Shown one piece after another: positions 11,356-64,000 of a DNA stretch of 64,000 nt. The position numbers were made by a program, and so were the translations under genes. Under the pieces are notes generated by a model that was not told the DNA's origin, did not search any database, and saw only the letters and a program-made list of their open reading frames with translations. Numbering within the stretch: position 1 is the stretch's first letter; each line of letters begins with the position of its first letter. The DNA comes from Squalus acanthias. Lineage: Eukaryota. The stretch spans positions 142,354,001 to 142,418,000 of the forward strand of contig CM059431.1 in NCBI GenBank assembly GCA_030390025.1, given 5' to 3'.

Positions 11356-11394
11356 GATTTATATCACAGCGAGGGGCTTTACAGTGTAACAGGG

Positions 11395-13057: not shown

Positions 13058-13149
13058 TGACTGTACTTAGTGCAACGCTCTTTGTATTTAATATCATATC
13101 ATGTCACCGCTGTGTAAACCATATACTTCGAAATATTGAACAGAAAAAA

Positions 13150-15665: not shown

Positions 15666-15668
15666 GTT

Positions 15669-24557: not shown

Positions 24558-25345
24558 CATCCACTTTGGAGCTAAAAAGAATAGAACCGGGTATTTTAAA
24601 AATGGTTAAAGCTAAAATTAGTTCAGGTCCAAAGACACGAGGGGGGTCCAGATTCATAGATCATTAAAATGTCATGAACAGGTACAGAAAATAATCAAAA
24701 AGGCTGATGGGATGCTGGCCTTTATATCTGGAGGAGTAGAATACAAAGGGGTAGAGGTTAAGCTGCAGCTGTACAAAAACCTAGTTAGACCACACCTGGA
24801 GTACTGTGAGCAGTTCTGGGCACCACACCTTAGGAAGGATATATTGGACTTGGAGGGAGTGCAGCGTAGATTTACCAGAATGATATCCGGACTTCAATGT
24901 TTAAGTCACGAGGAGAGATTGCACACATTGGGGTTGTCGTCCCTCGAAATTAGAAGGTTAAGGGTTGATCTTATCGAAGTTTTCAAGATATTAAGGGGAA
25001 CAGATAGGGTAAATAGAGAGCAACTATTTCTGCTGGTTGGAGATTCTAGGATTAGTGGGCATAATCAAAAAATTATGGCCAGACCTTTCAGGAGTGAAAT
25101 TTGGAAACACTTCTGCAGACAAAAGGCGTTAAAGTTTGGAACTCTCTTCCTTAAAGGGCAGTTGATGCTAGGTCAATTCTTAATTTTACATTGGAGATTG
25201 ATAGCTTTTTGTTAACCAACGGTATTAATGGATATGGATAAAAGATGGGGATGTGGAGTTAGGTCGCAGATCAGTCATGATCTCATTGAAAGTTGGAACA
25301 GTCTCGAGGAGCTCAATGGCCTACTCCTGTTCCTATGTTCCTAAT
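24558..25345 (+). mobile_element. 5'-truncated CR1 LINE with TTCCTATG-type tail; same subfamily as the satellite-donor copy at 29578
   Basis: HFG...RSLKCHEQVQKIIKKADGMLAFISGGVEYKG; ORF 24712-25215; tail ctactcctgttcctatgttccta. Confidence 0.9.
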
Positions 25346-25699
25346 GGAACCAGAGATCACAGTTGTGATGGAAAGTCGCCCTGTGCTAGGAGATCAATCT
25401 CTATTAGAAAGTTACCTTTTTCTTTCCAAGTGATGTGTACAGAGTATTCTTTAAGAGAGTGCTTCTAATCAGAGTTTTAAATTTGGGAATTTGGAGTGTT
25501 TGGGAATTCGGAACAGAGGAGGAAAGTGGGGTTGATTTTTGCCTCCAATACTTGGAGTGCTTTATGTTACAGGTAAATGTTTAATTTTATCTACATAGAA
25601 CTTAAACTAGATCTAGCAATTAGCTAAAGCAAAACTATAAGCTAAGAAAATTAAAAGCATAAATTTTAGTTCACTATATAAATAAAACAAGGTTATAAA

Positions 25700-28800: not shown

Positions 28801-28847
28801 GCGGGGGAGTTGGACTAACTAGATTGCTTTGCGAAAGAGCCGACACA

Positions 28848-29391
28848 AAGAAACATAGAAGCATAGAAACATAGAAGATAGGAGCAGGAGTAGGCCATTC
28901 GGCCCCTCGCGCCTGCTCCACCATTCGATGAGATCATGGCTGATCATCTAAACTCAGTACCCTGTCCCTGCCTTCTCCCCATATCCCTTGATACTTTTAG
29001 CCTTAAGAAATATATCTAACTCCTCTTGAATATATTTACTGACTTGGCCTCAACTGCTTTCTGTGGTAGAGAATTCCAAAGGTTCACCACTCTCTGGGTG
29101 AAGAAATTCCTCCTCATCTCTGTCCTAAATGGCTTACCCCTTATCTTTAGACTATGACCTCTTGTTCTGGACTCACCCACCATCGGGAACATCCTTCCTG
29201 CATCCAGTCGGTCTAGCCCTGTTAGAATTTTATAAGTTTAAATGAGATCTCCTCTCATTCTTCTGAACTCCAGCGAGTATAAGCCCAATCGACCCAATCT
29301 CTCCTCGTACGTCATTCCTGCCATCCCAGGTATCAGTCTGGTGAATCTTCGCTGCACACCCTCCATGGCAAGAACATCCTTCCTCAGATAA
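28848..29391 (-). mobile_element. Nested 5'-truncated CR1 3' fragment with 6-bp TSD
   Basis: Tail aagaaacatagaagcatagaaacatagaag; closely similar to 22989-23520; flanked by gacaca at 28842-28847 and 29392-29397. Confidence 0.92.
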
Positions 29392-29577
29392 GACACAGAC
29401 CCGATGGGCCGTATGGCCTCCTTCTGTGCTGTACTCTTCTAAGATTCTATGATCCTATGAGAGAAACGAGATTTGCTTTGATAACGCAATGCCCAAATGA
29501 CAACCCATGTTACAATATTTCCTCAGTTGTTACATCTAAACAGTAATCATGATTATAAGAATGGTATCGGCTTCCTA

Positions 29578-29978
29578 CTAGGAACATAAGAGCAAGAGTA
29601 GGCCATTTGGCCCCTCGAGCCTATTGCGCCATTCAATGAGATAATGGTCGATCTGGAACCTAATTCCGTATACCCGCCTATACCCAATATAATATAAATC
29701 TGTCAATTTCTGTTTTAAAATTCACATTTACAATCCCTTCTTGGCCGATATGACCTTCCTAAGGTGTGGTGCCCAGAACGGAACACAGTACTCCAGGTGT
29801 GGCCTAACGAGGGCTTCGTATAGATGTAACATAACTTCGACCCCATGTATTCTAGTCTTCTAGATAGAACGCCCAGCATTTCATTAGTCTTTTTGATTCG
29901 TGTCTGTACCTGTCCATGAAAATTTTACCATCTATGTACATGGACCCCGAATGCTCTTTGGAACTCCACTGTTACTAG
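29578..29978 (-). mobile_element. CR1 LINE 3' fragment (internally deleted) that runs directly into the 23-bp satellite
   Basis: Tail taggaacataagagcaagagtagg. The minus strand reads [44 protein letters not shown], then [19 protein letters not shown]. Confidence 0.9.
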
Positions 29979-32900
29979 CTTCGGACCTCCACTGTTTCTA
30001 ACTTTGGACCTCCACTGTTTCTAGCTTTGGATCTTCACTGTTTCCAGCTTTGCATCTCCACTGTTTCTAGCTTTGGACCTTCACTGTTTCTAGCATTGGA
30101 ACTCCACTCTTTCTAGCTTTGGACCTTCACTGTTTCTAGCTTTAGACCTTCACAGTTTCTAGCTTTGGACCTTCACTGTTTCTAGGTTTGGACCATCACT
30201 GTTTCTAGATTTGTATCTCCACTATTTCTAGTTTTGGACCTTCACTGTTTCTAGCTTTGGACCTCGACTGTTTCTAGCTTTGCACCTCCACTCTTTCTAA
30301 CTTTGGACCTTCACTGTTTACAGATTTGGACCTTCACAGTTTCTAGCTTTGGACCTTCACTGTTTCTAGCTTTGGATCTCCACTCTTTCTAACTTTGGAC
30401 CTCCACTGATTCTGGCTTTGGATCTCCACTCTTTCTAGTTTTGGACCTCCACTGTTTCAAGCTTTGGACCTACACTGTTTCAAGCTTTGGACCTTCACTG
30501 TTTCGAGCTTTGGACCTTCACTGTTTCTAGTTTTGGACCTTCACCGTTTCTAACTTTGGAACTTCACTGTTTCTAGCTTTGGACCACCACTGTTTCAAGC
30601 TTTGGAACTTCACAGTTTCTAGCTTTGGACCTTCATTGTTTCTAGCTTTGGACCTCCGTTGTTTCTAGCTTTGGACCTTCACTGTTTCCAGCTTTGTATC
30701 TCCACTGTTTCTAGATTTGGAGCTCCACTGTTTCTAGCTTTGGAGCTCCACGGTTTCCAGCTTTGTATCTCCACTGTTTCTAACTTTGGACCTCCAATGT
30801 TTCTAGCATTCGACCTACACTTTTTCTAGCTTTGGACCACCACTGTGTCTAGCTTTGGAACTCTACTGTTTCCAGCTTTGGTCCGCCACTGTTTCTAGCT
30901 TTGGATCTCCACTGTTTCTAGCTTTGGATCTCCACTGTTTCTAGCTTTGTACATTCACTATTTATAGATTTGGACCACCACTGTTTCTAGCTTTGGATCT
31001 CCACTGTTTCTAGCTTTGGACCTTCTGTCTTTCTAGATTTGGACCTCCACTGTTTCTAGCTTTGGACATTCAATCTTTCTAGCTTTGGATCTCCACTGTT
31101 TCTAGCTTTGATCCTCCACTCTTTCTAGCTTTGGACCTTCACTGTTTCTACCTTTGGACCTCCACTGTTTCCAGCTTTGGCTCTCCTCTCTTTCTAGCTT
31201 TGGACCTTCACTCTTTCTAGCTTTGGACCTTCACTGTTTCTAGCTTTGGATCCTCACTGTTTCTAGCTTTGGACCTTCATTGTTTTAGCTTTGGACATCC
31301 ACTGTTTCTAGTATTTGACCTCCACTGTTTCTAGCTTTGGACCCTCACTGTTTCTAGCTTTGGACCTTCACTGTTTCTAGCTTTGGACCTCCAATGTTTC
31401 TAGCTTTTGACCTTCACTGTTTCCAGCTTTGTATCTCCACTGTTTCTAGCTTTGGAGCTCCACTGTTTCTAGCTTTGGACCTTCACTGTTTCCAGCATTG
31501 TATCTCCACTGCTTCTAACTTTGGACCTCCACTGTTTCTAGCATTGGACCCTCACTGTTTCTGGCTTTGGACCTCCACTGTTTCTAGCTTTGGAGCTCCA
31601 GTGTTTCTAGCTTTGGTCCACCAGAGTTTCTAGCTCTGGATCTCCACTGTTTTTTGCTTTGGATCTCCACTGTTTCTAGCTTTGTACCTTCACAGTTTCT
31701 ACCTTCGGACCTCCACTGTTTCTAGCTTTGGATCTCCACTGTTTCTAGCTTTGGACCTTCACTCTTTCTAGCTTTGGACCTCCACTGTTTCTAGCATTGG
31801 ACCTTCACTGTTTCTAGCTTTGGATCTCCAGTGTTTCTAGCTTTGGACCTCCACTCTTTCTAGCTTTGGAAATTCAGTTTCTAGCTTTGGACCTTCGCAT
31901 TTTCTAGCTTTGGCCCTCCACTGTTTCGAGCATTGGATATCCATTTTTTCTATCATTGGACATTCACTCTTCCTAGCTTTGGATCTCCACTGTTTCTAGC
32001 TTTGTCCTTCACACCTTCTAGCTTTGGACCTTCATTGTTTCTACCTTTGGACCTCCACTGTTTATTGCTTTGGATCTCCTCTCTTTCTAGTTTTGGACCT
32101 TCACTCTTTCTTGCTTTGGAACTTCACTGTTTCTAGCTTTGGATCTTCACTGTTTCTAGCTTTGGACCCTCACAGTTTCTAGCTTTGAACATCCAATGTT
32201 TCTAGCTTTGAACCTTCACAGTTTCTAGCTTTGGATCTTCACAGTTTCTAGCTTTGGACCTCCACTGTTTCCAGCTTTGGACATTCACTGTTTCTAGCTT
32301 TGGACCTTTACAGTTTCTAGCTTTGGACCTCCACTGTTTCTAGCTTTGGACCTCCACTGTGTCTAGCTTTGGACCTTCACTGTTTCGAGCTTTGGATCTT
32401 CACAGTTTCTAGCTTTGGAACTTCACTGTTTCTAGCTTTGGAACTTCACTGTTTCTAGCTTTGGACCACCACTATTTCTAGCGTTGGACCTTCACAGTTT
32501 CTAGCTTTGGACCTTCACTGTTTCTAGCTTTAGACCATCACAGTTTCTAGGTTTGGACCTTCTCTGTTTCTAGCTTTGGACATTCACTGTTAAGAGCGTT
32601 GGACCTTCACTGTTTCTAGCTTTGGACCTTCACTGTTTCCAGCTTTGTATCTCCACTGTTTCTAACTTTGGACCTCCACTGTTTCTAGCATTGGACCTTC
32701 ACTGTTTTTGGCTTTGGACCTCCACTGTTTCTAGAGTTGGAGCTCCACTGTTTCTAGCTTTGGTCCACCACAGTTTCTAGCTTTGGATCTCCACTGTTTC
32801 TAGCTTTGGACCTCCACTGTTTCTAGCATTGGACCTTCACTGTTTCTAGCTTTGGATCTCAACTGTTTCTGGCTTTGGACTTCCACTGTTTCGAGCATTG

Positions 32901-35900
32901 GATCTCCATTTTTGTCTAGCATTGGCCTTGCACTCTTTCTAGCTTTGGATCTCCACTGTTTCTAGCTTTGTCCTTCACACTTTCTAGCTTTGGACCTTCA
33001 CTGTTTCTACCATTGGACCTCCACTGTTTCTTGCTTTAGATCTCCTCTCTTTCTAGTTTTGGACCTTCATTCTTTCTTGCTGTGGAACTTCACTGTTTCT
33101 AGCTTTGGATCTTTACTGTTTCTAGCTTTGGACCTTCACAGTTTCTAGCATTGAACCTCAACTGTTTCTAGCTTTGGACCATCACAGTTTCTAGCTTTGA
33201 ATCTTCAAAGTTTCTAGCTTTGGACCTCCACTGTTTCTAGCTTTGGACCTACACTCCTTCTAGCTTTGGACATTCAATCTTTCTAGCTTTGGATCTCCAC
33301 TGTTTCTAGCTTTGATCCTCCACTGTTTCTAGCATTGGATCTCCACTGTTTCTAGCATTGGACATTCACTTTTTCTAACTTTGGATCTCCACTGTTTCTA
33401 GCTTTGGACCTTCACTCTTTCTAGCTTTGGACCTTCACTGTTTCTACCTTTGGACCTCCACTGTTTCTAACTTTGTACATTCACAGTTTCTAGCTTCGGA
33501 CCACCACTGTTTCTAGCTTTGGATCTCCACTGTTTCTAGCTTTGGACCTTCTGTCTTTCTAGATTTGGACCTCCACTGTTTCTAGCTTTGGACATTCAAT
33601 CTTTCTAGCTTTGGATCTCCACTGTTTCTAGCTTTGATCCTCCACCCTTTCTAGCTTTGGACCTTCACTGTTTCTACCTTTGGACCTCCACTGTTTCCAG
33701 ATTGGATCTCCTCTCTTTCTAGCTTTGGACCTTCACTCTTTCTAGCTTTGGACCTTCACTGTTTCTAGCTTTGGATCCTCACTGTTTCTAGCTTTGGACC
33801 TTCACTGTTTTAGCTTTGGACATCCACTGTTTCTAGTATTTGACCTCCACTGTTTCTAGCTTTGGACCTTCACTGTTTCTAGCTTTGGACCTTCGCTGTT
33901 TCTAGCTTTGGACCTCCACTGTTTCTAGCTTTTGACCTTCACTGTTTCCAGCTTTGTATCTCCACTGTTTCTAGCTTTGGAGCTCCACTGTTTCTAGCTT
34001 TGGACCTTCACTGTTTCCAGCATTGTATCTCCACTGCTTCTAAGTTTGGACCTCCACTGTTTCTAGCATTGGACCCTCACTGTTTCTGGCTTTGGACCTC
34101 CACTGTTTCTAGCTTTGGAGCTCCACTGTTTCTAGCTTTGGTCCACCAGAGTTTCTAGCTCTGGATCTCCACTGTTTCTAGCTTTGGATCTCCACTGTTT
34201 CTAGCTTTGTACCTTCACAGTTTCTAGCTTCGGACCTCCACTGTTTCTAGCTTTGGATCTCCACTGTTTATAGCTTTGGACCTTCACTCTTTCTAGCTTT
34301 GGACCTCCACTGTTTCTAGCATAGGACCTTCACTGTTTCTAGCTTTGGATCTCCAGTGTTTCTAGCTTTGGACCTCCACTCTTTCTAGCTTTGGAAATTC
34401 ACAGTTTCTAGCTTTGGACCTTCGCATTTTCTAGCTTTGGCCCTCCACTGTTTCGAGCATTGGATATCCATTTTTTCTATCATTGGACATTCACTCTTCC
34501 TAGCTTTGGATCTCCACTGTTTCTAGCTTTGTCCTTCACACTTTCTAGCTTTGGACCTTCATTGTTTCTACCTTTGGTCTACCACTGTTTATTGCTTTGG
34601 ATCTCCTCTCTTTCTAGTTTTGGACCTTCACTCTTTCTTGCTTTGGAACTTCACTGTTTCTAGCTTTGGATCTTCACTGTTTCTAGCTTTGGACCCTCAC
34701 AGTTTCTAGCTTTGAACATCCAATGTTTCTAGCTTTGAACCTTCACAGTTTCTAGCTTTGGATCTTCACAGTTTCTAGCTTTGGACCTCCACTGTTTCCA
34801 GCTTTGGACATTCACTGTTTCTAGCTTTGGACCTTTACAGTTTCTAGCTTTGGACCTCCACTGTTTCTAGCTTTGGACCTCCACTGTGTGTAGCTTTGGA
34901 TCTTCACTGTTTCGAGCTTTGGATCTTCACAGTTTCTAGCTTTGGACCTTCACTGTTTCTAGCTTTGGAACTTCACTGTTTCTAGCTTTGGACCACCACT
35001 GTTTCTAGCGTTGGACCTTCACAGTTTCTCGCTTTGGACCTTCACTGTTTCTAGCTTTAGACCGTCACAGTTTCTAGGTTTGGACCTTCACTGTTTCTAG
35101 CTTTGGACATTCACTGTTAAGAGCGTTGGACCTTCACTGTTTCTAGCTTTGGACCTTCACTGTTTCCAGCTTTGATCCTCCACTGTTTCTAACATTGGAT
35201 CTCCACTGTTTCTAGCATTGGACATTCACTTTTTCTAACTTTGGATCTCCACTGTTTCTAGCTTTGGACCTTCACTCGTTCTAGCTTTGGACCTTCACTG
35301 TTTCTACCTTTGGACCTCCACTGTTTCTAGCTTTGTACATTCACAGTTTCTAGCTTTGGACCACCACTGTTTCTAGCTTTGGATCTCCACTGTTTCTAGC
35401 TTTGGACCTTCTGTCTTCTAGATTTGGACCTCCACTGTTTCTAGCTTTGGACATTCAATCTTTCTAGCTTTGGATAACCACTGTTTCTAGCTTTGATCCT
35501 CCACTCTTTCTAGCTTTGGACCTTCACTGTTTCTACCTTTGGACCTCCACTGTTTCCAGATTGGATCTTCTCTCTTTCTAGCTTTGGACCTTCACTCTTT
35601 CTAGCTTTGGACCTTCACTCTTTCTAGTTTGGATCCTCACTGTTTCTAGCTTTGGACCTTCACTGTTTTAGCTTTGGACATCCACTGTTTCTAGTATTTG
35701 ACCTCCACTGTTTCTAGCTTTGGACCTTCACTGTTTCTAGCTTTGGACCTTCACTGTTTCTAGCTTTGGACCTCCACTGTTTCTAGCTTTTGACCTTCAC
35801 TGTTTCCAGCTTTGTATCTCCACTGCTTCTAACTTTGGACCTCCACTGTTTCTAGCATTGGACCCTCACTGTTTCTGGCTTTGGACCTCCACTGTTTCTA

Positions 35901-38900
35901 GCTTTGGAGCTCCACTGTTTCTAGCTTTGGTCCACCAGAGTTTCTAGCTCTGGATCTCCACTGTTTCTAGCTTTGGATCTCCACTGTTTCTAGCTTTGTA
36001 CCTTCACAGTTTCGAGCTTCGGACCTCCACTGTTTCTAGCTTTGGATCTCCACTGTTTATAGCTTTGGACCTTCACTCTTTCTAGCTTTGGACCTCCACT
36101 GTTTCTAGCATTGGACCTTCACTGTTTCTAGCTTTGGATCTCCAGTGTTTCTAGCTTTGGACCTCCACTCTTTCTAGCTTTGGAAATTCACAGTTTCTAG
36201 CTTTGGACCTTCGCATTTTCTAGCTTTGGCCCTCCACTGTTTCGAGCATTGGATATCCATTTTTTCTATCATTGGACATTCACTCTTCCTAGCTTTGGAT
36301 CTCCACTGTTTCTAGCTTTGTCCTTCACACTTTCTAGCTTTGGACCTTCATTGTTTCTACCTTTGGTCCTCCACTGTTTATTGCTTTGGATCTCCTCTCC
36401 TTCTAGTTTTGGACCTTCACTCTTTCTTGCTTTGGAACTTCACTGTTTCTAGCTTTGGATCTTCACTGTTTCTAGCTTTGGACCTCCACTGTTTCCAGCT
36501 TTGGACATTCACTGTTTCTAGCTTTGGACCTTTACAGTTTCTAGCTTTGGACCTCCACTGTTTCTAGCTTTGGACCTTCACTGTGTCTAGCTTTGGACCT
36601 TCACTGTTTCGAGCTTTGGATCTTCACAGTTTCTAGCTTTGGACCTTCACTGTTTCTAGCTTTGGAACTTCACTGTTTCTAGCTTTGGACCACCACTGTT
36701 TCTAGCGTTGGACCTTCACAGTTTCTCGCTTTGGACCTTCACTGTTTTTGGCTTTGGACCTCCACTGTTTCTAGCATTGGACCTTCACTGTTAAGAGCGT
36801 TGGACCTTCACTGTTTCTAGCTTTGGACCTTCACTGTTTCCAGCTTTGTATCTCCACTGTTTCTAACTTTGGACCTCCACTGTTTCTAGCATTGGACCTT
36901 CACTGTTTTTGGCTTTGGACCTCCACTGTTTCTAGATTTGGAGCTCCACTGTTTCTAGCTTTGGTCCACCACAGTTTCTAGCTTTGGATCTCCACTGTTT
37001 CTAGCTTTGGATTTCCACTGTTTCTAGCTTTGGAACTTCAGTCTTTCTAGTTTGGATCTCCACTGTTTCTAGCATTGGACCTTCACTGTTTCTAGCTTTG
37101 GATCTCAACTGTTTCTGGCTTTGGACTTCAACTGTTTCGAGCATTGGATCTCCATTTCTGTCTTGCATTGGACTTGCACTCTTTCTAGCTTTGGATCTCC
37201 ACTGTTTCTAGCTTTGTCCTTCACACTTTCTAGCTTTGGACCTTCACTGTTTCTACCATTGGACCTCCACTGTTTCTTGCTTTAGATCTCCTCTCTTTCT
37301 AGTTTTGGACCTTCACTCTTTCTTGCTGTGGAACTTCACTGTTTCTAGCTTTGGATCTCCACTGTTTATAGCTTTGGACCTTCACTCTTTCTAGCTTTGG
37401 ACCTCCACTGTTTCTAGCATAGGACCTTCACTGTTTCTAGCTTTGGATCTCCAGTGTTTCTAGCTTTGGACCTCCACTCTTTCTAGCTTTGGAAATTCAC
37501 AGTTTCTAGCTTTGGACCTTCGCATTTTCTAGCTTTGGCCCTCCACTGTTTCGAGCATTGGATATCCATTTTTTCTATCATTGGACATTCACTCTTCCTA
37601 GCTTTGGATCTCCACTGTTTCTAGCTTTGTCCTTCACACTTTCTAGCTTTGGACCTTCATTGTTTCTACCTTTGGTCTACCACTGTTTATTGCTTTGGAT
37701 CTCCTCTCTTTCTAGTTTTGGACCTTCACTCTTTCTTGCTTTGGAACTTCACTGTTTCTAGCTTTGGATCTTCACTGTTTCTAGCTTTGGACCCTCACAG
37801 TTTCTAGCTTTGAACATCCAATGTTTCTAGCTTTGAACCTTCACAGTTTCTAGCTTTGGATCTTCACAGTTTCTAGCTTTGGACCTCCACTGTTTCCAGC
37901 TTTGGACATTCACTGTTTCTAGCTTTGGACCTTTACAGTTTCTAGCTTTGGACCTCCACTGTTTCTAGCTTTGGACCTCCACTGTGTGTAGCTTTGGATC
38001 TTCACTGTTTCGAGCTTTGGATCTTCACAGTTTCTAGCTTTGGACCTTCACTGTTTCTAGCTTTGGAACTTCACTGTTTCTAGCTTTGGACCACCACTGT
38101 TTCTAGCGTTGGACCTTCACAGTTTCTCGCTTTGGACCTTCACTGTTTCTAGCTTTAGACCGTCACAGTTTCTAGGTTTGGACCTTCACTGTTTCTAGCT
38201 TTGGACATTCACTGTTAAGAGCGTTGGACCTTCACTGTTTCTAGCTTTGGACCTTCACTGTTTCCAGCTTTGATCCTCCACTGTTTCTAGCATTGGATCT
38301 CCACTGTTTCTAGCATTGGACATTCACTTTTTCTAACTTTGGATCTCCACTGTTTCTAGCTTTGGACCTTCACTCGTTCTAGCTTTGGACCTTCACTGTT
38401 TCTACCTTTGGACCTCCACTGTTTCTAGCTTTGTACATTCACAGTTTCTAGCTTCGGACCACCACTGTTTCTAGCTTTGGATCTCCACTGTTTCTAGCTT
38501 TGGACCTTCTGTCTTTCTAGATTTGGACCTCCACTGTTTCTAGCTTTGGACATTCAATCTTTCTAGCTTTGGATAACCACTGTTTCTAGCTTTGATCCTC
38601 CACTCTTTCTAGCTTTGGACCTTCACTGTTTCTACCTTTGGACCTCCACTGTTTCCAGATTGGTTCTTCTCTCTTTCTAGCTTTGGACCTTCACTCTTTC
38701 TAGCTTTGGACCTTCACTCTTTCTAGTTTGGATCCTCACTGTTTCTAGCTTTGGACCTTCACTGTTTTAGCTTTGGACATCCACTGTTTCTAGTATTTGA
38801 CCTCCACTGTTTCTAGCTTTGGACCTTCACTGTTTCTAGCTTTGGACCTTCACTGTTTCTAGCTTTGGACCTCCACTGTTTCTAGCTTTTGACCTTCACT

Positions 38901-41900
38901 GTTTCCAGCTTTGTATCTCCACTGCTTCTAACTTTGGACCTCCACTGTTTCTAGCATTGGACCCTCACTGTTTCTGGCTTTGGACCTCCACTGTTTCTAG
39001 CTTTGGAGCTCCACTGTTTCTAGCTTTGGTCCACCAGAGTTTCTAGCTCTGGATCTCCACTGTTTCTAGCTTTGGATCTCCACTGTTTCTAGCTTTGTAC
39101 CTTCACAGTTTCGAGCTTCGGACCTCCACTGTTTCTAGCTTTGGATCTCCACTGTTTATAGCTTTGGACCTTCACTCTTTCTAGCTTTGGACCTCCACTG
39201 TTTCTAGCATTGGACCTTCACTGTTTCTAGCTTTGGATCTCCAGTGTTTCTAGCTTTGGACCTCCACTCTTTCTAGCTTTGGAAATTCACAGTTTCTAGC
39301 TTTGGACCTTCGCATTTTCTAGCTTTGGCCCTCCACTGTTTCGAGCATTGGATATCCATTTTTTCTATCATTGGACATTCACTCTTCCTAGCTTTGGATC
39401 TCCACTGTTTCTAGCTTTGTCCTTCACACTTTCTAGCTTTGGACCTTCATTGTTTCTACCTTTGGTCCTCCACTGTTTATTGCTTTGGATCTCCTCTCCT
39501 TCTAGTTTTGGACCTTCACTCTTTCTTGCTTTGGAACTTCACTGTTTCTAGCTTTGGACCTCCACTGTTTCTAGCTTTGGACCATCACAGTTTCTAGCTT
39601 TGGATCTTCACAGTTTCTAGCTTTGGACCTCCACTGTTTCTAGTTTTGTACCTTCAATGTTTCTAGCTTTGGATCTTCACAGATTCTAGCTTTGGACCTC
39701 CACTGTTTCTAGCTTTGGATCTTCACTGTTTCGAGCTTTGGATCTTCACAGTTTCTAGCTTTGGACCTCCACTGTTTCTAGCTTTGGAACTTCACTGTTT
39801 CTAGCTTTGGACCACCACTGTTTCTAGCGTTGGACCTTCACAGTTTCTAGCTTTGGACATTCACTGTTTCTAGCTTTAGACCGTCACAGTTTCTAGCTTT
39901 GGACCTTCCCTGTTTCTAGCTTTGGACATTCACTGTTAAGAGCGTTGGACCTTCACTGTTTCTAGCTTTGGACCTTCACTGTTTCTAGCTTTGGACCTTC
40001 ACAGTTTCTCGCTTTGGACCTTCACTGTTTTTGGCTTTGGACCTCCACTGTTTCTAGCATTGGACCTTCACTGTTAAGAGCGTTGGACCTTCACTGTTTC
40101 TAGCTTTGGACCTTCACTGTTTCCAGCTTTGTATCTCCACTGTTTCTAACTTTGGACCTCCACTGTTTCTAGCATTGGACCTTCACTGTTTTTGGCTTTG
40201 GACTTCCACTGTTTCTAGATTTGGAGCTCCACTGTTTCTAGCTTTGGTCCACCACAGTTTCTAGCTTTGGATCTCCACTGTTTCTAGCTTTGGATTTCCA
40301 CTGTTTCTAGCTTTGGAACTTCAGTCTTTCTAGTTTGGATCTCCACTGTTTCTAGCATTGGACCTTCACTGTTTCTACCTTTGGATCTCAACTGTTTCTG
40401 GCTTTGGACTTCCACTGTTTCGAGCATTGGATCTCCATTTCTGTCTAGCATTGGACTTGCACTCTTTCTAGCTTTGGATCTCCACTGTTTCTAGCTTTGT
40501 CCTTCACACTTTCTAGCTTTGGACCTTCACTGTTTCTACCATTGGACCTCCACTGTTTCTTGCTTTAGATCTCCTCTCTTTCTAGTTTTGGACCTTCACT
40601 CTTTCTTGCTGTGGAACTTCACTGTTTCTAGCTTTGGATCTTCACTGTTTCTAGCTTTGGACCTTCACAGTTTCTAGCATTGAACCTCCACTGTTTCTAG
40701 CTTTGGACCTTCACAGTTTCTAGCATTGAACCTCCACTGTTTCTAGCTTTGGACCATCACAGTTTCTAGCTTTGGATCTTCACAGTTTCTAGCTTTGGAC
40801 CTCCACTGTTTCTAGCTTTGGACCTATACTCCTTCTAGCTTTGGACATTCAATCTTTCTAGCTTTGGATCTCCACTGTTTCTAGCTTTGATCCTCTACTG
40901 TTTCTAGCATTGGATCTCCACTGTTTCTAGCATTGGACATTCACTTTTTCTAACTTTGGATCTCCACTGTTTCTAGCTTTGGACCTTCACTCTTTCTAGC
41001 TTTGGACCTTCACTGTTTCTACCTTTGGACCTCCACTGTTTCTAGCTTTGGATCTCCTCTCATTCCAACTTTGGACGTTCACTCTTTCTAGCTTTGGACC
41101 TTCACTGTTTCCATCTTTCGATCTTCACTGTTTCTAGCTTTGGACCTCCACTGTTTCTAGCTTTGGACCATCACAGTTTCTATCTTTGGATCTTCACAGT
41201 TTCTAGCTTTGGACCTCCACTGTTTCTAGCTTTGGACATTCACTGTTTCTAGCTTTGGACCTTTACAGTTTCTAGCTTTGGACCTCCACTGTTTCTAGCT
41301 TTGGACCTCCACTGTTTCTAGTTTTGTACCTTCAATGTTTCTAGCTTTGGATCTTCACAGATTCTAGCTTTGGACCTCCACTGTTTCTAGCTTTGGATCT
41401 TCACTGTTTCGAGCTTTGGATCTTCACAGTTTCTAGCTTTGGACATCCACTGTTTCTAGCTTTGGAACTTCACTGTTTCTAGCTTTGGACCACCACTGTT
41501 TCTAGCGTTGGACCTTCACAGTTTCTAGCTTTGGACATTCACTGTTTCTAGCTTTAGACCGTCACAGTTTCTAGCTTTGGACCTTCACTGTTTCTAGCTT
41601 TGGACATTCACTGTTAAGAGCGTTGGACCTTCACTGTTTCTAGCTTTGGACCTTCACTGTTTCTAGCTTTGGACCTCCACTGTTTCTAGCTTTGGACCTT
41701 CACTGTTTCTAGCATTGGACCTTCACTGTTTCTGGCTTTGGACCTCCACTGTTTCTAGATTTGGATCTTCACTGTTTCTAGCTTTGGACCATCACAGTTT
41801 CTAGCTTTGGATCTTCACAGTTTCTAGCTTTGGACCTCCACTGTTTCTAGCTTTGGACCTATACTCCTTCTAGCTTTGGACATTCAATCTTTCTAGCTTT

Positions 41901-44900
41901 GGATCTCCACTGTTTCTAGCTTTGATCCTCTACTGTTTCTAGCATTGGATCTCCACTGTTTCTAGCATTGGACATTCACTTTTTCTAACTTTGGATCTCC
42001 ACTGTTTCTAGCTTTGGACCTTCACTCTTTCTAGCTTTGGACCTTCACTGTTTCTACCTTTGGACCTCCACTGTTTCTAGCTTTGGATCTCCTCTCATTC
42101 CAACTTTGGACGTTCACTCTTTCTAGCTTTGGACCTTCACTGTTTCCATCTTTCGATCTTCACTGTTTCTAGTTTTGGACCTCCACTGTTTCTAGCTTTG
42201 GACCATCACAGTTTCTATCTTTGGATCTTCACAGTTTCTAGCTTTGGACCTCCACTGTTTCTAGCTTTGGACATTCACTGTTTCTAGCTTTGGACCTTTA
42301 CAGTTTCTAGCTTTGGACCTCCACTGTTTCTAGCTTTGGACCTCCACTGTTTCTAGTTTTGTACCTTCAATGTTTCTAGCTTTGGATCTTCACAGATTCT
42401 AGCTTTGGACCTCCACTGTTTCTAGCTTTGGATCTTCACTGTTTCGAGCTTTGGATCTTCACAGTTTCTAGCTTTGGACATCCACTGTTTCTAGCTTTGG
42501 AACTTCACTGTTTCTAGCTTTGGACCACCACTGTTTCTAGCGTTGGACCTTCACAGTTTCTAGCTTTGGACATTCACTGTTTCTAGCTTTAGACCGTCAC
42601 AGTTTCTAGCTTTGGACCTTCACTGTTTCTAGCTTTGGACATTCACTGTTAAGAGCGTTGGACCTTCACTGTTTCTAGCTTTGGACCTTCACTGTTTCTA
42701 GCTTTGGACCTCCACTGTTTCTAGCTTTGGACCTTCACTGTTTCTAGCATTGGACCTTCACTGTTTCTGGCTTTGGACCTCCACTGTTTCTAGATTTGGA
42801 TCTTCACTGTTTCTAGCTTTGGACCTTCACAGTTTCTAGCATTGAAACTCCACTGTTTCTAGCTTTGGACCATCACAGTTTCTAGCTTTGGATCTTCACA
42901 GTTTCTAGCTTTGGACCTCCACTGTTTCTAGCTTTCGACATTCACTGTTTCTAGCTTTAGACCTTTACAGTTTCTAGCTTTGGACCGCCACTGTTTCTAG
43001 CTTTGGACCTCCACTGTTTCTAGTTTTATACCTTCACTCTTTCTAGCTTTGGATCTTCACAGTTTCTAGCTTTGGACCACCACTGTTTCTAGCTTTGGAC
43101 CTCCATTGTTTCTAGCTTTGGAAAACCATTGTTTCCAGCGATGGATCTTCACTGTTTCTAGCTTTGGACCTTCACTGTTTCTACCTTGGACCTCCACTGT
43201 TTCTAGCTTTGGATCTCATCTCTTTCCAGCTTTGGATCTTCACTGTTTCCAGCTTTGGACCTTCACAGTCTCTAGCTTTGGACCTCCACTGTTTCTAGCT
43301 TTGTTGCTCCACTGTTTCTAGCTTTGGACCTCCACTGTTTCCAGCTTTGGACTTCCATTATTTCTAGCTTTGGACCACCACTGTTTCAAGCGTTGGACCT
43401 TCACTGTTTCTAGCTTTGGATCTTCACTGTTTCTAGCTTTGGACCCTCACAGTTTCTAGCTTTGAACCTTCAATGTTTCTAGCTTTGAACCTTCACAGTT
43501 TCTAGCTTTGGATCTTCACAGTTTCTTGCTTTGGACCTCCACTGTTTCTAGCTTTGGACATTCACTGTTTCTAGCTTTGGACCTTTACAGTTTCTAGCTT
43601 TGGACCTCCACAGTTTCTAGCTTTGGACCTCCACTGTTTCTAGCTTTGGACCTTCACTGTTTCGATCTTTGGATCTTCACAGTTTCTATCTTTGGACCTC
43701 CACTGTTTCTAGCTTTGGAACTTCACTGTTTCTAGCTTTGGACCACCACTGTTTCTAGTGTTGGACCTTCACAGTTTCTAGCTTTAGACCGTCACAGTTT
43801 CTAGCTTTGGACCTTCACTGTTTCTAGCTTTGGACATTCACTGTTAAGAGCGTTGGAACTTCACTGTTTCTAGATTTGGAGCTCCACTGTTTCTAGATTT
43901 GGATCTCCACTGTTTCTAGCTTTGGTCCACCACAGTTTCTAGCATTGGACCTTCACTGTTTCTAGCTTTGGATCTCCACTGTTTCTAGCTTTGGACTTCC
44001 ACTGTTTCGAGCATTGGATCTCCATTTTTGTCTAGCATTGGGCTTTCACTCTTTCCAGCTTTGGATCTCCACTGTTTCTAGCTTTGTCCTTCACACTTTC
44101 TAGCTTTGGACCTTCACTGTTTCTACCTTTGGACCTCCACTGTTTCTTGCTTTAGATCTCCTCTCTTTCTAGTTTTGGACCTTCACTCTTTCTTGCTGTG
44201 GAACTTCACTGTTTCTAGCTTTGGATCTTCACTGTTTCTAGCTTTGGACCTTCACAGTTTGTAGCATTGAACCTCCACTGTTTCTAGCTTTGGACCATCA
44301 CAGTTTCTAGCTTTGGATCTTCATTTTCTAGCTTTGGACCTCCACTGTTTCTAGCTTTGGACCTACACTCTTTCTAGCTTTGGACATTCAATCTTTCTAG
44401 CTTTGGATCTCCACTGTTTCTAGCTTTGATCCTCCACTGTTTCTAGCATTGGATCTCCACTGTTTCTAGCATTGGACATTCACTCTTTCTAACTTTGGAT
44501 CTCCACTGTTTCTAGCTTTGGACCTTCACTCTTTCTAGCTTTGGACCTTCACTGTTTCTACCTTTGGACCTCCACTGTTTCTAGCTTTGGATCTGCTCTC
44601 TTTCCAGCTTTGGACGTTCACTCTTTCTAGCTTTGGACCTTCACTGTTTCCATCTTTGGATCTTCACTGTTTCTAGCTTTGGACCTTCAGAGTTTCTAGC
44701 TTTGAACCTCCACTGTTTCTTGCTTTGGACCTTGACAGTTTCTAGCTTTGGACCTTCACAGTTTCTAGCTTTGGACCTCCACTGTTTCTAGATTTGTTCC
44801 TCCACTGTTTCTAGCTTTGGACATTCACTGTTACTAGCTTTGGATCTTCGCAGTTTCTAGCTTTGGACCTCCACTGTTTCCAGCTTTGGACTTCCATTAT

Positions 44901-47900
44901 TTCTAGCTTTGGACCACCACTGTTTCAAGCGTTGGACCTTCACTGTTTCTAGCTTTGGACCTTCACTGTTTTAGCTTTGGACCTCCACTGTTTCTAGTAT
45001 TGGACCTCCACTGTTTCTAGCATTGGCCCTTCACTGTTTCTAGCTTTGGATCTTCACAGTTTCCAGCTTTGGACCTCCACTGTTTCTAGCTTTGGAACTC
45101 CACTGTTTCTAGCTTTGGACCACCACTGTTTCCAGCGATGGATCTTCACTGTTTCTAGCTCTGGACCTTCACTGTTTCTAGCTTTGGACCTCCACTGTTT
45201 CTAGCTTTGGACATTCACTGTTTCTAGCTTTGGACCTTTACAGTTTCTAGCTTTGGACCTCCACTGTTTCTATCTTTGGACCTCCACTGTTTCTAGCTTT
45301 GGACCTTCACTGTTTCGAGCTTTGGATCTTCACAGTTTCTATCTTTGGATCTCCACTGTTTCTAGCTTTGGAACTTCACTGTTTCTAGCTTTGGACCACC
45401 ACTGTTTCTAGTGTTGGACCTTCACAGTTTCTAGCTTTGGACCTTCACTGTTTCTAGCTTTAGACCGTCACAGTTTCTAGCTTTGGACCTTCACTGTTTC
45501 TAGCTTTGGACATTCACTGTTAAGAGCGTTGGAACTTCACTGTTTCTAGCTTTGGACCTTTTACTGTTTCTAGCTTTGGACCTCCACTGTTTCTAGCTTT
45601 GGACCTTCACTGTTTCCAGCTTTGTATCTCCACTGTTTCTAACTTTGGACCTCCACTGTTTCTAGCATTGGACCTTCACTGTTTCTGGCTTTGGACCTCC
45701 ACTATTTCTAGATTTGGAGCTCCACTGTTTCTAGCTTTGGTCCACCACAGTTTCTAGCATTGGACCTTCACTGTTTCTAGCTTTGGATCTCCACTGTTTC
45801 TAGCTTTGGACTTCCACTGTTTCGAGCATTGGATCTCCATTTTTGTCTTGCATTGGACTTTCACTCTTTCTAGCTTTGGATCTCCACTGTTTCTAGCTAT
45901 GTCCTTCACACTTTCTAGCTTTGGACCTTCACTGTTTCTACCTTTGGACCTCCACTGTTTCTTGCTTTAGATCTCCTCTCTTTCTAGTTTTGGACCTTCA
46001 CTCTTTCTTGCTGTGGGACTTCACTGTTTCTAGCTTTGGATCTTCACTGTTTCTAACTTTGGATCTTCACAGTTTCTAGCATTGAACCTCCACTGTTTCT
46101 AGCTTTGGACCATCACAGTTTCTAGCTTTGGATCTTCAGTTTCTAGCTTTGGACCTCCACTGTTTCTAGCTTTGGACCTACACTCTTTCTAGCTTTGGAC
46201 ATTCAATCTTTCTAGCTTTGGATCTCCACTGTTTCTAGCTTTGATCCTCCACTGTTTCTAGCATTGGATCTCCACTGTTTCTAGCATTGGACATTCACTC
46301 TTTCTAACTTTGGATCTCCACTGTTTCTAGCTTTGGACCTTCACTCTATCTAGCTTTGGACCTTCACTGTTTCTACCTTTGGACCTCCACTGTTTCTAGC
46401 TTTGGATCTCCTCTCTTTCCAGCTTTGGACGTTCACTCTTTCTAGCTTTGGACCTTCACTGTTTCCATCTTTGGATCTTCACTGTTTCTACATTTGGACC
46501 TTCAGAGTTTCTAGCTTTGAACCTCCACTGTTTCTAGCTTTGGACCTTGACAGTTTCTAGCTTTGGACCTTCACAGTTTCTTGCTTTGGACCTCCACTGT
46601 TTCCAGCTTTGGACTTCCATTATTTCTAGCTTTGGACCACCACTGTTTCAAGCGTTGGAACTTCACTGTTTCTAGCTTTGGACCTCCACTGTTTCCAGCT
46701 TTGGACTTCCATTATTTCTAGCTTTGGACCACCACTGTTTCAAGCGTTGGACCTTCACTGTTTCTAGCTTTGGACCTTCACTGTTTTAGCTTTGGACCTC
46801 CACTGTTTCTAGTATTGGACCTCCACTGTTTCTAGCATTGGCCCTTCACTGTTTAAGCTTTGGATCTTCACTGTTTCTAGCTTTGGACCTCCACTGTTTC
46901 TAGCTTTGGAACTCCACTCTTTCTAGCTTTGGACCACCACTGTTTCCAGCGATGGATCTTCACTGTTTCTAGCTCTGGACCTTCACTGTTTCTAGCTTTG
47001 GACCTCCACTGTTTCTAGCTTTGGATCTTTATAGTTTCCAGCGTTGGACCTTCACTGTTTCTAGCTTTGGATCTCCACTTTTTCTAGCTTTGGACCTACG
47101 CTCTTTCTAGCTTTGGACATTCAATCTTTCTAGCTTTGGATCTCCACTGTTTCTAGCTTTAATCCTCCACTGTTTCTAGCATTGGATCTCCACTGTTTCT
47201 AGCATTGGACATTCACTCTATCTAACTTTGGATCTCCACTGTTTCTAGCTTTGGTCCTTCACTCTTTCTAGCTTTGGACCTTCACTGTTTCTACCTTTGG
47301 ACCTCCACTGTTTCTAGCTTTGGATCTCCTCTCTTTCTAGCTTTGGACGTTCACTGTTTCTAGCTTTGGACCTTCAGAGTTTCTATCTTTGAACCCCCAC
47401 TGTTTCTAGTATTGGACCTCCACTGTTTCTAGCATTGGCCCTTCACTGTTTCTAGCTTTGGATTTTCACAGTTTCTAGCTTTGGACCTACACTGTTTCTA
47501 GCTTTGGAACTCCACTGTTTCTAGCTTTGGACCACCACTGTTTCCAGCGATGGATCTTCACTGTTTCCAGCTCTGGACATTCACTGTTTCTAGCTTTGGA
47601 CCTTCACTGTTTCCATCTTTGGATCTTCACTGTTTCTAGCTTTGGACCTTCAGAGTTTCTAGCTTTGAACCTCCACTGTTTCTAGCTTTGGACCTTGACA
47701 GTTTCTAGCTTTGGACCTTCACAGTTTCTAGCTTTGGACCTCCACTGTTTCTAGATTTGTTCCTCCACTGTTTCTAGCTTTGGACATTCACTGTTACTAG
47801 CTTTGGATCTTCGCAGTTTCTAGCTTTGGACCTCCGCTGTTTCCAGCTTTGGACTTCCATTATTTCTAGCTTTGGACCACCACTGTTTCAAGCGTTGGAC

Positions 47901-62900: not shown

Positions 62901-64000
62901 AGTTTCTAGCTTTGTACCTTCGCAGTTTCTAGCTTTGGACCTTCACTGTTTCTAGCTTTAGAACTTCACAGTTTCAGCTTTGGACCTTCGCAGTTTCTAA
63001 CTTTGGACCTCCACTCTTTCCAGCTTTGGACCTTCACTGTTTCTCGCTTTGGACCTTCACTCTTTCGAGCTTTGGAACTTCACAGTTTCTAGCTTTGGAC
63101 CTTCACTCTTTGTAGCTTTGGACCTTCACAGTTTCTAGCTTTGGACCTTCACTCTTTCTAGCTTTGGAACTCCACTGTTTCTAGCTTTGGAACTTCACTC
63201 TTTCTAGCTTTGGACTTCCACTCTTTCTAGCTTTGGAACTTCACTGTTTCTAGCTTTGGACCTTCACATTTTCTAGCTTTGGACCTCCACTGTTTCTGGC
63301 TTTCAACCTTCACTGTTTCCAGCTTTGGTCGTTCAGATTTTCTAACTTTGAACCTCCACTGTTTCTAGCTTTGGACCTTCACAGTTTCTGGCTTTCGACC
63401 TTCACAGTTTCTAGCTTTGGACCTCCACTGTTTCTAGCTTTGTTCCTCCACTGTTTTTAGCTATGGACCTTTGCAGTTTCCACCTTTGGACCTCCACTGT
63501 TTCTAGCTTTGGACCTCCACTGTTTCTAGCTTTGGACGCTCACTGTTTCTAGCTTTGGATCTTCCCAGTTTCTAGCTTTGGACCTCCACTGTTTCTAGCT
63601 TTGTTCCTCCACTGTTTTTAGCTATGGACATTCACTGTTACTATCTTTGGATCTTCGCAGTTTCTAGCTTTGGACCTCCACTCTTTCTAGCTTTGGACCT
63701 TCACAGTTTCTAGCTTTGAACCTCCAATGTTTCTAGCTTTGGACCTTCACAGTTTCTGGCTTTGGATCTTCACAGTTTCTAGCTTTGGACCTCCACTGTT
63801 TCTAGCTTTGGTCCTTCACTGTTTCTAGCTTTGGACCTTTACAGTTTCTAGCTTTGGACCTCCACTGTTTCTAGCTTTGGACCTCCACTGTTTCTAGCTT
63901 TGGACGCTCACTGTTTCTAGCTTTGGATCTTCTCAGTTTCTAGCTTTGGACCTCCACTGTTTCTAGCTTTGGACCTCCACTGTTTCTAGCTTTGGACCAC
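29956..64000. repeat. 23-bp satellite DNA array, >34 kb, roughly 1470 monomers in the window, single orientation, with higher-order structure
   Basis: Consensus CTTTGGACCTYCACTGTTTCTAG. Continues to the window end with no interspersed elements seen. Confidence 0.98.
60528..60727. other. Assembly gap (200 N)
   Basis: Run of N with the satellite in the same orientation on both sides. Confidence 0.99.

What the first reader, a model, noticed from the sequence alone, without database searches (positions are those of the whole stretch)
29740..30100. A >34 kb satellite appears to have been born inside a LINE: the 23-bp monomer is CR1 ORF2 coding sequence and the array starts in register within the donor copy
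Seen: on the minus strand the monomer is CTAGAAACAGTGGAGGTCCAAAG, which reads LETVEVQ(R/S). The edge monomer (29956-29978) continues without a break into CR1 ORF2 as KLVTVEFQR-AFGVHVHR...QVQTRIKKTNEML. That is the position occupied by LGNVGIQRDLVV, LGKGEVQRDLGVHVH and GNVDVQRDLGV in other LINEs of this window. Known: satellites derived from retroelements have been reported, including CR1-related tandem arrays in birds. Inference: the array expanded in situ from 23 bp of this LINE copy, so this may be the founding locus of a satellite family that I do not recognise.
Basis: partly seen in the sequence, partly recalled or inferred. Interest (0 to 1): 0.9.

Follow-up and report, generated by a model that had tools for sequence, protein, structure and literature searches.

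The report
Satellite DNA born from a LINE
A 47-kb array of 23-bp repeats is built from a 23-base piece of a jumping gene's reverse-transcriptase gene and still joins that gene in register on one side, a clean but not unprecedented case of a transposon turning into satellite DNA.

Summary
A 23-bp tandem array starts at window 29956, runs off the window and ends at C7:142431336. That is 47.4 kb as assembled, including a 200-N gap.

Read on the minus strand, the commonest monomer (188 of 2031) is identical, 23 of 23 bases, to the majority sequence of a dispersed CR1-like LINE subfamily. It matches the ORF2 codons L-E-T-V-E-V-Q-R. The array joins a copy of that LINE exactly in register. In the LINE the 23-mer is flanked by an AAAG direct repeat, which fits birth by slippage.

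The "founding locus" idea fails:
- At least 17 arrays (0.8 to about 55 kb) lie within C7:136.7-147.6 Mb and on unplaced contigs. None was found on another chromosome.
- Nine of 10 fetched copies of the proximal flank share the same LINE junction.
- This locus belongs to a young subgroup with a derived ~690-bp deletion at the far edge.
- The LINE does not resume at the far edge in any of 11 junctions examined.

My reading is one birth in an ancestral LINE copy that was 5'-truncated or later broken, followed by spread through segmental duplication. This is a new member of a known kind (transposon-derived satellites). An earlier scan note reports another CR1-derived satellite in this genome.

The parts
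29956..64000 (-). The 23-bp tandem array, window part. It continues to C7:142431336 beyond the window: 47,381 bp as assembled and 2031 recognisable monomers. The strand is given in the sense of the donor LINE.
   Evidence: TRF. Pattern count against shuffles. Far end located. Whole-array statistics.
29956..29978 (-). Edge monomer. It has 2 mismatches to the LINE 23-mer and is in register with the LINE ORF2 that follows it on the minus strand.
   Evidence: The same junction occurs in 9 of 10 fetched paralogous flanks.
29731..29955 (-). Fragment of a CR1-like LINE ORF2, the donor copy. It reads QR-AFGVHVHR...QVQTRIKKTNEML...LEYC.. with a stop and frameshifts. It is 84-85% identical to dispersed copies of the subfamily.
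   Evidence: 24 LINE-only matches covering query 329/335 to 548-561. Alignment. ORFs.
29580..29730 (-). 3'-terminal piece of a CR1-like LINE (...IEWRNRLEGPNGLLLLL...) abutting the ORF2 fragment. About 250 bp of ORF2 are missing between the two pieces. Whether it belongs to the same element was not resolved.
   Evidence: Read directly. The assignment is inference.
60528..60727 (.). Run of 200 N inside the array (a scaffold gap or a withheld stretch). True array length and continuity at this locus are therefore uncertain.
24560..25345 (+). A second, unexpanded copy of the donor LINE subfamily in the same window. It has one copy of the 23-mer at 24612-24634 (5 mismatches) and a 3' end reading ..TTCCTATGTTCCTA.

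Best explanation
The array is a transposon-derived satellite, with a minisatellite-sized unit.

Proposed history:
1. A copy of a CR1-like LINE sat antisense upstream of a B3GALT-like gene paralog on contig C7.
2. In its ORF2, about 50 codons past the end of the Pfam RVT_1 match in a related window LINE, the 23 bases CTAGAAACAGTGGAGGTCCAAAG lie between two AAAG direct repeats. The longer, imperfect form is GTGAAAAG...GTCCAAAG, alike at 6 of 8 positions.
3. A slippage or microhomology-mediated repair event between these repeats duplicated the 23-mer.
4. Further slippage and unequal exchange grew the array.
5. The array and both flanks were then copied by segmental duplication at least 17 times within about 11 Mb of C7. 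Each copy has since changed size on its own, from 0.8 to about 55 kb.

The locus in the window is a young copy that has lost about 690 bp at its far junction. The donor LINE ends at the array. It was either 5'-truncated at or near the 23-mer when it inserted, or its 5' part was deleted before the first segmental duplication.

Shown: monomer identity, the in-register junction, the flanking direct repeat, the shared junctions, the restricted distribution and the deletion. Inferred: the slippage mechanism, in-situ birth and the order of events. No cellular function is implied.
For: 1. Array and monomer. The commonest monomer, 188 of 2031, equals the LINE 23-mer. The majority consensus differs at one position only, position 11, where T occurs 1075 times and the LINE base C 918 times.

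2. Donor family. All 20 fetched subfamily copies, from 11 contigs, carry a single copy of the 23-mer in the ORF2 frame ...FLNGEK[LETVEVQR]DLGVHVHRSLK.... These were 20 of the 24 LINE-only matches. Their majority sequence is 23 of 23 identical to the commonest monomer, and AAAG lies on both sides.

3. Register. The last monomer ends in ...CCAAAG and runs straight into AGCATTCGGGGTCCATGTACAT. The LINE reads AGACTTGGGGGTCCATGTACAT at that point.

4. One origin.
- Sixteen places match nearly the whole 561-bp proximal flank at 82-100%.
- Nine of the 10 fetched show the same junction. Their degenerate edge monomers are recognisably shared within subgroups.
- One paralog (C3342) shows both junctions around a 1.2-kb array in gap-free sequence.

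5. Distribution.
- All 100 exact matches to a two-monomer 46-mer are listed. Of these, 95 lie on C7:137.72-147.19 Mb and 5 on C1118, C3218 and C3762.
- A 35-mer spanning a monomer-to-monomer joint has 4127 matches. The first 100 listed start at C7:136.72 Mb. If the listing follows contig order, C1-C6 hold none.

6. Polarity of the far-edge deletion. Older array-bearing paralogs (L057-L062) have 340 bp of low-copy sequence plus a CR1 3' fragment between the array and the B3GALT-like flank. That 340 bp matched at only about 11 paralogous loci, with weak partial hits at a few other places. The same CR1 fragment abuts the flank in 20 array-less paralogs, L063-L082. The young group, L052-L056, which includes this locus, lacks both pieces.

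7. Growth by unequal exchange. There is no regular higher-order repeat. Local block duplications at lags of 35-214 monomers reach 95% identity, against an 83% background.

8. The model is in print. Review PMC6947457 (passages seen) describes minisatellite birth by slippage between short direct repeats of 5-10 bp that flank a motif inside repetitive elements, crediting Haber and Louis 1998.
Against: - No significant LINE sequence lies beyond the far edge. Eleven far junctions were inspected. Seven far flanks were scored by Smith-Waterman against 2000 shuffles, giving p = 0.09 to 0.99. Six of them were also searched with nhmmer, best E = 0.045, and that match is carried by the last monomer itself. 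One-sided LINE flanking is also what a secondary, homology-guided junction would leave.
- Two arrays, L088 and L089, which are paralogs of each other, have a proximal flank with no match to window 1-29955.
- One array, L086, abuts the homolog of window 25069-26976 and lacks the LINE flank.
- Two array edges, L087 and L090, sit at assembly gaps.
- The founding copy cannot be named.
- This locus's two junctions are linked only across a 200-N gap.
- The AAAG repeat is only 4 bases long, so it could be there by chance.
- No unexpanded 'empty' version of the donor LINE was found among the array-less paralogs.
Confidence: 0.78

Rival explanations
1. Secondary junction. The satellite was born in another copy of the same LINE subfamily elsewhere. 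An existing array then recombined by homology with this LINE copy. That would give an in-register junction on one side only, and all C7 arrays would descend from the recombinant.
For: The LINE flanks the array on one side only, in all 11 far junctions examined. The monomer carries no substitution private to this LINE copy, so the donor copy cannot be identified from the monomer. Arrays with other proximal flanks exist: L088 and L089.
Against: No array was found outside the C7:136.7-147.6 Mb family and its unplaced contigs (by the order of its listing). The LINE junction is shared across the deepest flank divergences, 82-96%. This history needs extra steps: birth elsewhere, ectopic exchange and loss of the original.
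Confidence: 0.12
2. Birth at integration. The tandem 23-mers were first made when the LINE inserted, by the reverse transcriptase switching template repeatedly at the 5' end of a truncated cDNA. On this view the array marks the element's 5' junction, not a later slippage event.
For: The LINE's 5' boundary coincides with the far end of the array in every paralog examined. This fits a 5'-truncated insertion whose end lay at or within about 15 nt of the 23-mer.
Against: I know of no precedent, and I searched for none. None of the 20 other subfamily copies shows extra 23-mers, including 5 whose LINE part ends within about 60 nt upstream of the 23-mer. A later deletion explains the same boundary.
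Confidence: 0.07
3. Chance resemblance or reverse direction. Either the monomer only happens to resemble the LINE, or the LINE acquired the 23-mer from the satellite.
For: None found.
Against: The match is 23 of 23 at the exact in-register position. The 23-mer is in frame in ORF2 and is present once in all 20 dispersed copies, on 11 contigs. Other LINE families in the window have homologous codons at the same place: LGKGEVQRDLGV and GNVDVQRDLGV.
Confidence: 0.01

Closest known systems
Chicken HinfI (SCR1) tandem repeat holding a CR1 fragment (Li and Leung 2006). I saw it only as cited in the text and table of review PMC9659126 and in the table of PMC6947457.
   Same: A tandem repeat family whose unit contains CR1 sequence, including part of ORF2.
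   Different: By the review's table, the chicken unit holds the 3' UTR and a partial ORF2 coding region. Here the whole unit is 23 bases of ORF2 and nothing else. The junction with the donor element is preserved in register, and the family is confined to about 11 Mb of one chromosome. I did not read the original paper.
LINE-1 ORF2-related satellites: PROsat of Phodopus roborovskii and Pvc20 of Phoca vitulina. Seen only as listed in review PMC9659126.
   Same: Satellite monomers with similarity to LINE ORF2 coding sequence.
   Different: A different LINE clade and host. The review gives 88% similarity to a small region of PROsat, whereas here the full monomer is identical to the donor subfamily. 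I saw no information there about a preserved birth junction.
Minisatellite birth by slippage or unequal exchange between short direct repeats flanking a motif inside a repetitive element (Haber and Louis 1998, as described in review PMC6947457).
   Same: In the progenitor the unit is bounded by a short direct repeat: AAAG, or 6 of 8 positions for GTGAAAAG/GTCCAAAG. The unit is of minisatellite size, 23 bp.
   Different: The perfect repeat is 4 bp, shorter than the 5-10 bp quoted. Arrays reach about 55 kb, which is satellite scale. The mechanism is inferred here, not observed.
CR1-derived 49-bp satellite in the same genome (earlier scan note e1-7790172). This is an unchecked AI note.
   Same: Same genome, same class of donor, and a tandem array inside a decayed CR1 fragment.
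   Different: That unit comes from the ORF2 stop and 3' UTR. It is reported as very abundant across the genome and its relatives. This one comes from mid-ORF2 and is confined to one chromosomal region.

Membership tests
Transposon-derived satellite or minisatellite DNA | Head-to-tail tandem array of a fixed unit | tested here: met
   TRF gives period 23 and 1481 copies in the window. Of 2030 spacings between monomers, 1956 are exactly 23.
Transposon-derived satellite or minisatellite DNA | The unit is homologous to an internal part of a dispersed transposable element, which carries it once | tested here: met
   The commonest monomer equals the majority of 20 LINE copies, 23 of 23. Each of the 20 copies carries one copy. 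No exact dimer occurs outside the C7 family.
Transposon-derived satellite or minisatellite DNA | The array is embedded in the donor element, with the element on both sides (the in-situ signature) | tested here: not met
   The proximal side is met, in register. The distal side has no significant LINE sequence: 11 junctions were inspected and 7 far flanks tested. This feature is not required for membership of the class. It bears only on the in-situ claim.
Slippage-born minisatellite (short direct repeats flanking the unit in the progenitor) | A short direct repeat at both ends of the unit in the unexpanded progenitor | tested here: met
   The LINE majority reads ...GTGAAAAG|CTAG...GTCCAAAG|AGAC. 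AAAG is perfect and the 8-mer matches at 6 of 8 positions. It is only 4 bp, so it may be chance.
CR1 clade of LINEs | Reverse-transcriptase ORF2 | tested here: inconclusive
   Pfam RVT_1 scores E = 1.7e-19 for a related LINE ORF in the window (21237-22292, minus strand). The donor-subfamily pieces fetched start downstream of the RT domain. A 197-aa donor-like C-terminal ORF gave no Pfam family.
CR1 clade of LINEs | A 3' end made of a short octamer repeat. Eight papers hold the CR1 octamer ATTCTRTG by full-text search, and one abstract gives TTCTGTGA. I saw only the listing and abstract starts. | tested here: inconclusive
   LINE 3' ends in the window read ..TCTTCTATGTTTCTATGCTTCTATGTTTC (minus strand, about 28840-28890). 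The donor-like copy reads ..TTCCTATGTTCCTA (25327-25345). These are octamer-like, but I did not examine them across the donor subfamily.
CR1 clade of LINEs | Phylogenetic placement of the RT among reference CR1, L2 and Rex elements | not testable with these tools
   No transposon reference library was at hand. My recollection that the C-terminal motif ..FF.QRVV..WN.LP..VV.A.S...FK..LD.. is typical of CR1 comes from memory, not from a call.
Centromeric satellite | Marks the centromere (CENP-A binding, primary constriction, one block per chromosome) | not tested
   The arrays are scattered over about 11 Mb of one contig, between gene paralogs. Nothing points to a centromere.

The most novel reading that the evidence does not exclude
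The C7 family is a fossil series of one satellite's life. The birth junction is preserved to the base, with the founding event readable as a 23-bp duplication between AAAG repeats at the very 5' end of a truncated CR1 copy. At least 17 descendants range from 0.8 to about 55 kb, so rates of array growth, block duplication and edge decay could be measured against the flank divergence clock. The boldest form, which the data do not exclude, is that the first tandem copies were made by reverse-transcriptase template switching when the LINE inserted.
Probability: 0.3. Interest if true: 0.5.

Novelty: new member of a known kind. Interest (0 to 1): 0.35.

Why it matters
Transposon-derived satellites are well documented. 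It is rarer to have all three of these together: a unit identical to its donor, a junction still in register, and the flanking microhomology visible. This locus family offers that, along with a natural size series of sister arrays dated by their flanks. That makes it a good teaching or modelling case for how satellites start and grow. It also shows that CR1-like elements seeded tandem arrays repeatedly in this genome. It does not change what is known about satellite origins, and no function is indicated.

Tried and rejected
I used searches and fetched stretches instead.
- Fuzzy-regex anchoring script. It timed out and was replaced by MAFFT.
- nhmmer of the LINE profile on whole paralog loci. 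The output was swamped by monomer hits, so I repeated it on the far flanks only.
- LINE-like stretches seen by eye in the far flank, such as TTTATAAATATGG against TTTCTAAATGG. They did not beat shuffles and I dropped them.
- Search for an unexpanded 'empty site' among 21 paralogs of the B3GALT-like flank that lack the 23-bp array. These share only the CR1 3' fragment, not the donor LINE.
- Regular higher-order repeat. None found. Base-level autocorrelation decays smoothly, and monomer-level lags show only local blocks.
- Single-strand DNA folding of three-monomer stretches. z-scores were 0.04, -0.01 and 1.83, so there is no unusual hairpin to favour slippage.
- RNA evidence. No RNA holder was listed.
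- Cross-species contigs.
  - Organism A, second sample X5: the array bins are about 100 times deeper than the LINE flank.
  - Organism D, X14: 6 listed contigs lie on the array at about 83-89% likeness, and the array bins are roughly 50 times deeper than the LINE flank.
  - Organisms B and C: no such excess, although one contig of organism C covers 5 monomers.
  - No listed contig bridges the junction. Organisms are coded, so their relatedness is unknown. I treat this only as a hint that the satellite is not private to one species.
- Literature search for the four monomer strings. 0 papers.
- Scan notes by sequence and by place near the window. Nothing.
- 'Hot spot of 5' truncation at the 23-mer' (L038, L039). 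On inspection L038 keeps about 25 more LINE bases, and L039 is an internal rearrangement.
Full report
WHAT IS THERE

The window is G000:C7:142354001-142418000. Tandem Repeats Finder reports one array from 29956 to 63998, with period 23, 1481 copies and 82% matches. The consensus monomer occurs 1193 times at up to 3 mismatches, against none in 100 shuffles.

Sampling beyond the window, followed by a 7-kb fetch, placed the far end at C7:142431336. With the missing 12 kb fetched, the array is 47,381 bp as assembled. It contains a 200-N run at window 60528-60727, so its true length and continuity are uncertain.

I recognised 2031 monomers, and 1956 of the 2030 spacings between them are exactly 23 bp. 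Any two monomers are on average 83% identical. There is no regular higher-order repeat. There are only local block duplications, at lags of 35-214 monomers, reaching up to 95% identity. The array looks old and appears to have been reshaped by unequal exchange.

THE MONOMER IS LINE ORF2 SEQUENCE

On the minus strand, the flank next to the array (29731-29955) is a decayed LINE ORF2 fragment. In the genome it matches many dispersed copies at 84-85%.

I fetched 20 of the 24 LINE-only matches, from 11 contigs, and aligned them. All 20 read ...AAATGGTGAAAAG | CTAGAAACAGTGGAGGTCCAAAG | AGACTTGGGGGTCCATGTACATAGA..., with minor differences. The middle 23 bases appear once in each copy and lie in the ORF2 frame...FLNGEK[LETVEVQR]DLGVHVHRSLKCHGQVQKIIKKANGMLAF....

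Mismatches of the 20 copies to this 23-mer are 0 in 4 copies, 1 in 5, 2 in 5, 3 in 4, 5 in 1 and 6 in 1.

The same 23-mer is the commonest monomer of the array, 188 of 2031. The array's majority consensus differs from it only at position 11, where T occurs 1075 times and C 918 times.

The direction is therefore LINE to satellite, and the identity is complete. In the LINE the 23-mer is bracketed by AAAG. The imperfect longer form is GTGAAAAG/GTCCAAAG, alike at 6 of 8 positions. This is the arrangement that the slippage model for minisatellite birth requires, as described in review PMC6947457 (passages seen).

THE JUNCTION IS IN REGISTER AND IS SHARED

The edge monomer (29956-29978) ends in ...CCAAAG. 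It continues AGCATTCGGGGTCCATGTACAT where the LINE reads AGACTTGGGGGTCCATGTACAT.

The 561 bp of flank (29400-29960) is a one-off mosaic of transposon fragments. It has 16 near-full-length matches in the genome at 82-100% identity. These lie on C7 between 136.7 and 147.6 Mb and on unplaced contigs.

Of the 10 that I fetched, 9 carry the array at the same junction. The tenth, L006, has other sequence inside the LINE flank. Degenerate edge monomers are shared within subgroups, so the junction is old and stable.

THE FAR EDGE

At this locus the array ends ...CCACTGTTTCTA | CCAGCAGACCTTTATGTTACTAATCGAGCC.... About 300 bp further on there is a B3GALT-like reading frame. Pfam Galactosyl_T scores E = 5.8e-33 and 1.9e-11 for its two halves, which are separated by an in-frame TAG at L031:2072. 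This is not the LINE.

The far flank has at least 40 paralogs, in three groups:
- Four of them (96-97% identical), together with this locus, form a young group and show the same junction as here.
- Six older ones (88-92%; L057-L062) have an extra ~690 bp between the array and the flank. It consists of 340 bp that matched at only about 11 array-bearing paralogous loci, with weak partial hits at a few other places, and then a CR1 3' fragment in the opposite orientation.
- Twenty array-less paralogs (L063-L082) have that same CR1 3' fragment abutting the flank.

Presence of the fragment is therefore ancestral, and the young group, which includes this window, carries a derived deletion.

In none of the 11 array-bearing far junctions does the donor LINE resume.
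- A profile of 15 LINE copies, searched on the six older far flanks, gave a best E of 0.045. That alignment is the last monomer plus about 10 weak bases.
- Smith-Waterman scores of 90 nt of LINE upstream sequence against 110 nt of far flank gave shuffle p-values of 0.43, 0.09, 0.56, 0.89, 0.31, 0.45 and 0.99.

One paralog (C3342) shows both junctions around a 1.2-kb array in gap-free sequence, so the architecture is not a scaffolding artefact.

DISTRIBUTION

An exact two-monomer 46-mer has 100 matches in the 3.7-Gb assembly, and all are listed. Ninety-five lie on C7:137.72-147.19 Mb. Five lie on unplaced contigs: C1118, C3218 and C3762.

A 35-mer spanning a monomer-to-monomer joint, at up to 1 mismatch, has 4127 matches. 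The first 100 listed all lie on C7, starting at 136.72 Mb. At this array's density of 8.0 matches per kb, that implies roughly 0.5 Mb of the satellite genome-wide.

Pairing proximal and distal flank coordinates gives array sizes from about 0.8 kb to about 54 kb. This is my arithmetic from those coordinates.

I checked further array edges:
- One array (L086) abuts the homolog of window 25069-26976. This is a 3-kb deletion variant.
- Two arrays, L088 and L089, which are paralogs of each other, have an unrelated proximal flank.
- Two array edges (L087, L090) stop at assembly gaps.

The LINE junction is therefore the majority state and the most deeply shared one, but it is not universal.

READING

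The simplest history has five steps:
1. One LINE copy sat upstream of a B3GALT-like paralog.
2. The 23-mer was duplicated between the AAAG repeats.
3. The array grew.
4. Array and flanks were copied by segmental duplication within one 11-Mb region.
5. Each copy then changed size independently.

The donor LINE ends at the array. It was either 5'-truncated there on insertion or lost its 5' part before the first duplication.

The main rival is a homology-guided secondary junction with an array born elsewhere. One-sided LINE flanking fits it too. But it needs an unseen founder array, and I give it about 0.12. Birth by template switching at integration is not excluded; I give it about 0.07.

The window's locus is not the founder.

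COMPARISON WITH WHAT IS KNOWN

Reviews list satellites derived from LINE coding regions. Examples are the chicken HinfI repeat with a CR1 fragment, chicken centromeric satellites from CR1-C, PROsat and Pvc20 from L1 ORF2 (passages and tables of PMC9659126 and PMC6947457). For PMC12628747 I saw only the search listing.

The monomer strings occur in none of the searched papers. A shark comparative-genomics paper mentions only other satellites in the passages I saw.

This is a new member of a known kind. It is notable for its clarity, not for its principle.

The 'CR1' label rests on three things. An RVT_1 match was found in a related window element. The 3' tails look octamer-like (with the octamer named in the listing). 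I also recall a C-terminal motif as typical of CR1. It was not tested by phylogeny.

OTHER SPECIES

Contigs of a second sample of the same organism label, and of a differently labelled organism D, hold arrays of this monomer. Those of two other labels show no excess. The labels are coded and no listed contig bridges the junction, so this is only a hint.

Noticed in passing
window 23365-24102: A 373-bp unit repeated twice at 80% identity (TRF). It is a tandem duplication of a CR1-like ORF2 C-terminal segment. The two copies are the minus-strand ORFs ..LGKGEVQRDLGVHVHQSLK.. and ..LGNVDVQRDLGVLVHQSLK... This is a second, larger LINE-internal tandem duplication in the same window.
   Followed up: no
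L083 (G000:C2617:509779-511941), about 1360-1500: At least three tandem copies of a ~42-bp unit (..GGCTCGAGGGGCTGAATGGCCTCCTCCTGTTCCTGTGTAACA..) made of a CR1 3' end. They sit exactly where the CR1 3' fragment abuts the B3GALT-like flank in a distant paralog. This may be related to the CR1-derived 49-bp satellite of scan note e1-7790172.
   Followed up: no
L031 1649-2412 (C7:142431649-142432412), just beyond the array: A B3GALT-like reading frame (Pfam Galactosyl_T) interrupted by an in-frame TAG at L031:2072-2074. Its upstream region has at least 40 paralogs on C7, C29 and many unplaced contigs, so this is an amplified gene or pseudogene family.
   Followed up: partly
window 60528-60727; also L087 3806-4005, L090 7864-8063, L091 9741-9940: 200-N runs inside or at the edges of arrays of this satellite. 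Several arrays are not fully assembled.
   Followed up: partly
L088 and L089 (C7:139083301-139093300 and C7:139235601-139245600): Two arrays of the same satellite share a proximal flank (...CAGAAATTATTT | TTTGCACCATCGC...) that has no match to window 1-29955. This is a secondary rearrangement within the family.
   Followed up: partly
L039 (G000:C1:232311868-232312701): In this LINE copy, ORF2 sequence ..LEYCVQFWALHFRKDI.. is joined directly to ..LEVVEGQRDLGV.., the 23-mer region that normally lies upstream of it. It looks like an internal tandem duplication or rearrangement at two similar motifs, LALEGVQR and LETVEVQR.
   Followed up: no
window 6604-19818: Several other minisatellite arrays: 29 bp x 142 (15669-19818), 36 bp x 31 (9152-10267), 40 bp (7280-7575 and 8494-8734) and 55 bp (6604-7045 and 11389-11710). 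Their origin was not examined.
   Followed up: no
window 29976-30100, coded runs X14 and X10: Contigs from a differently labelled organism D lie wholly on the array at about 83-89% likeness (6 listed). One contig of organism C covers 5 monomers. The satellite may predate the species.
   Followed up: partly
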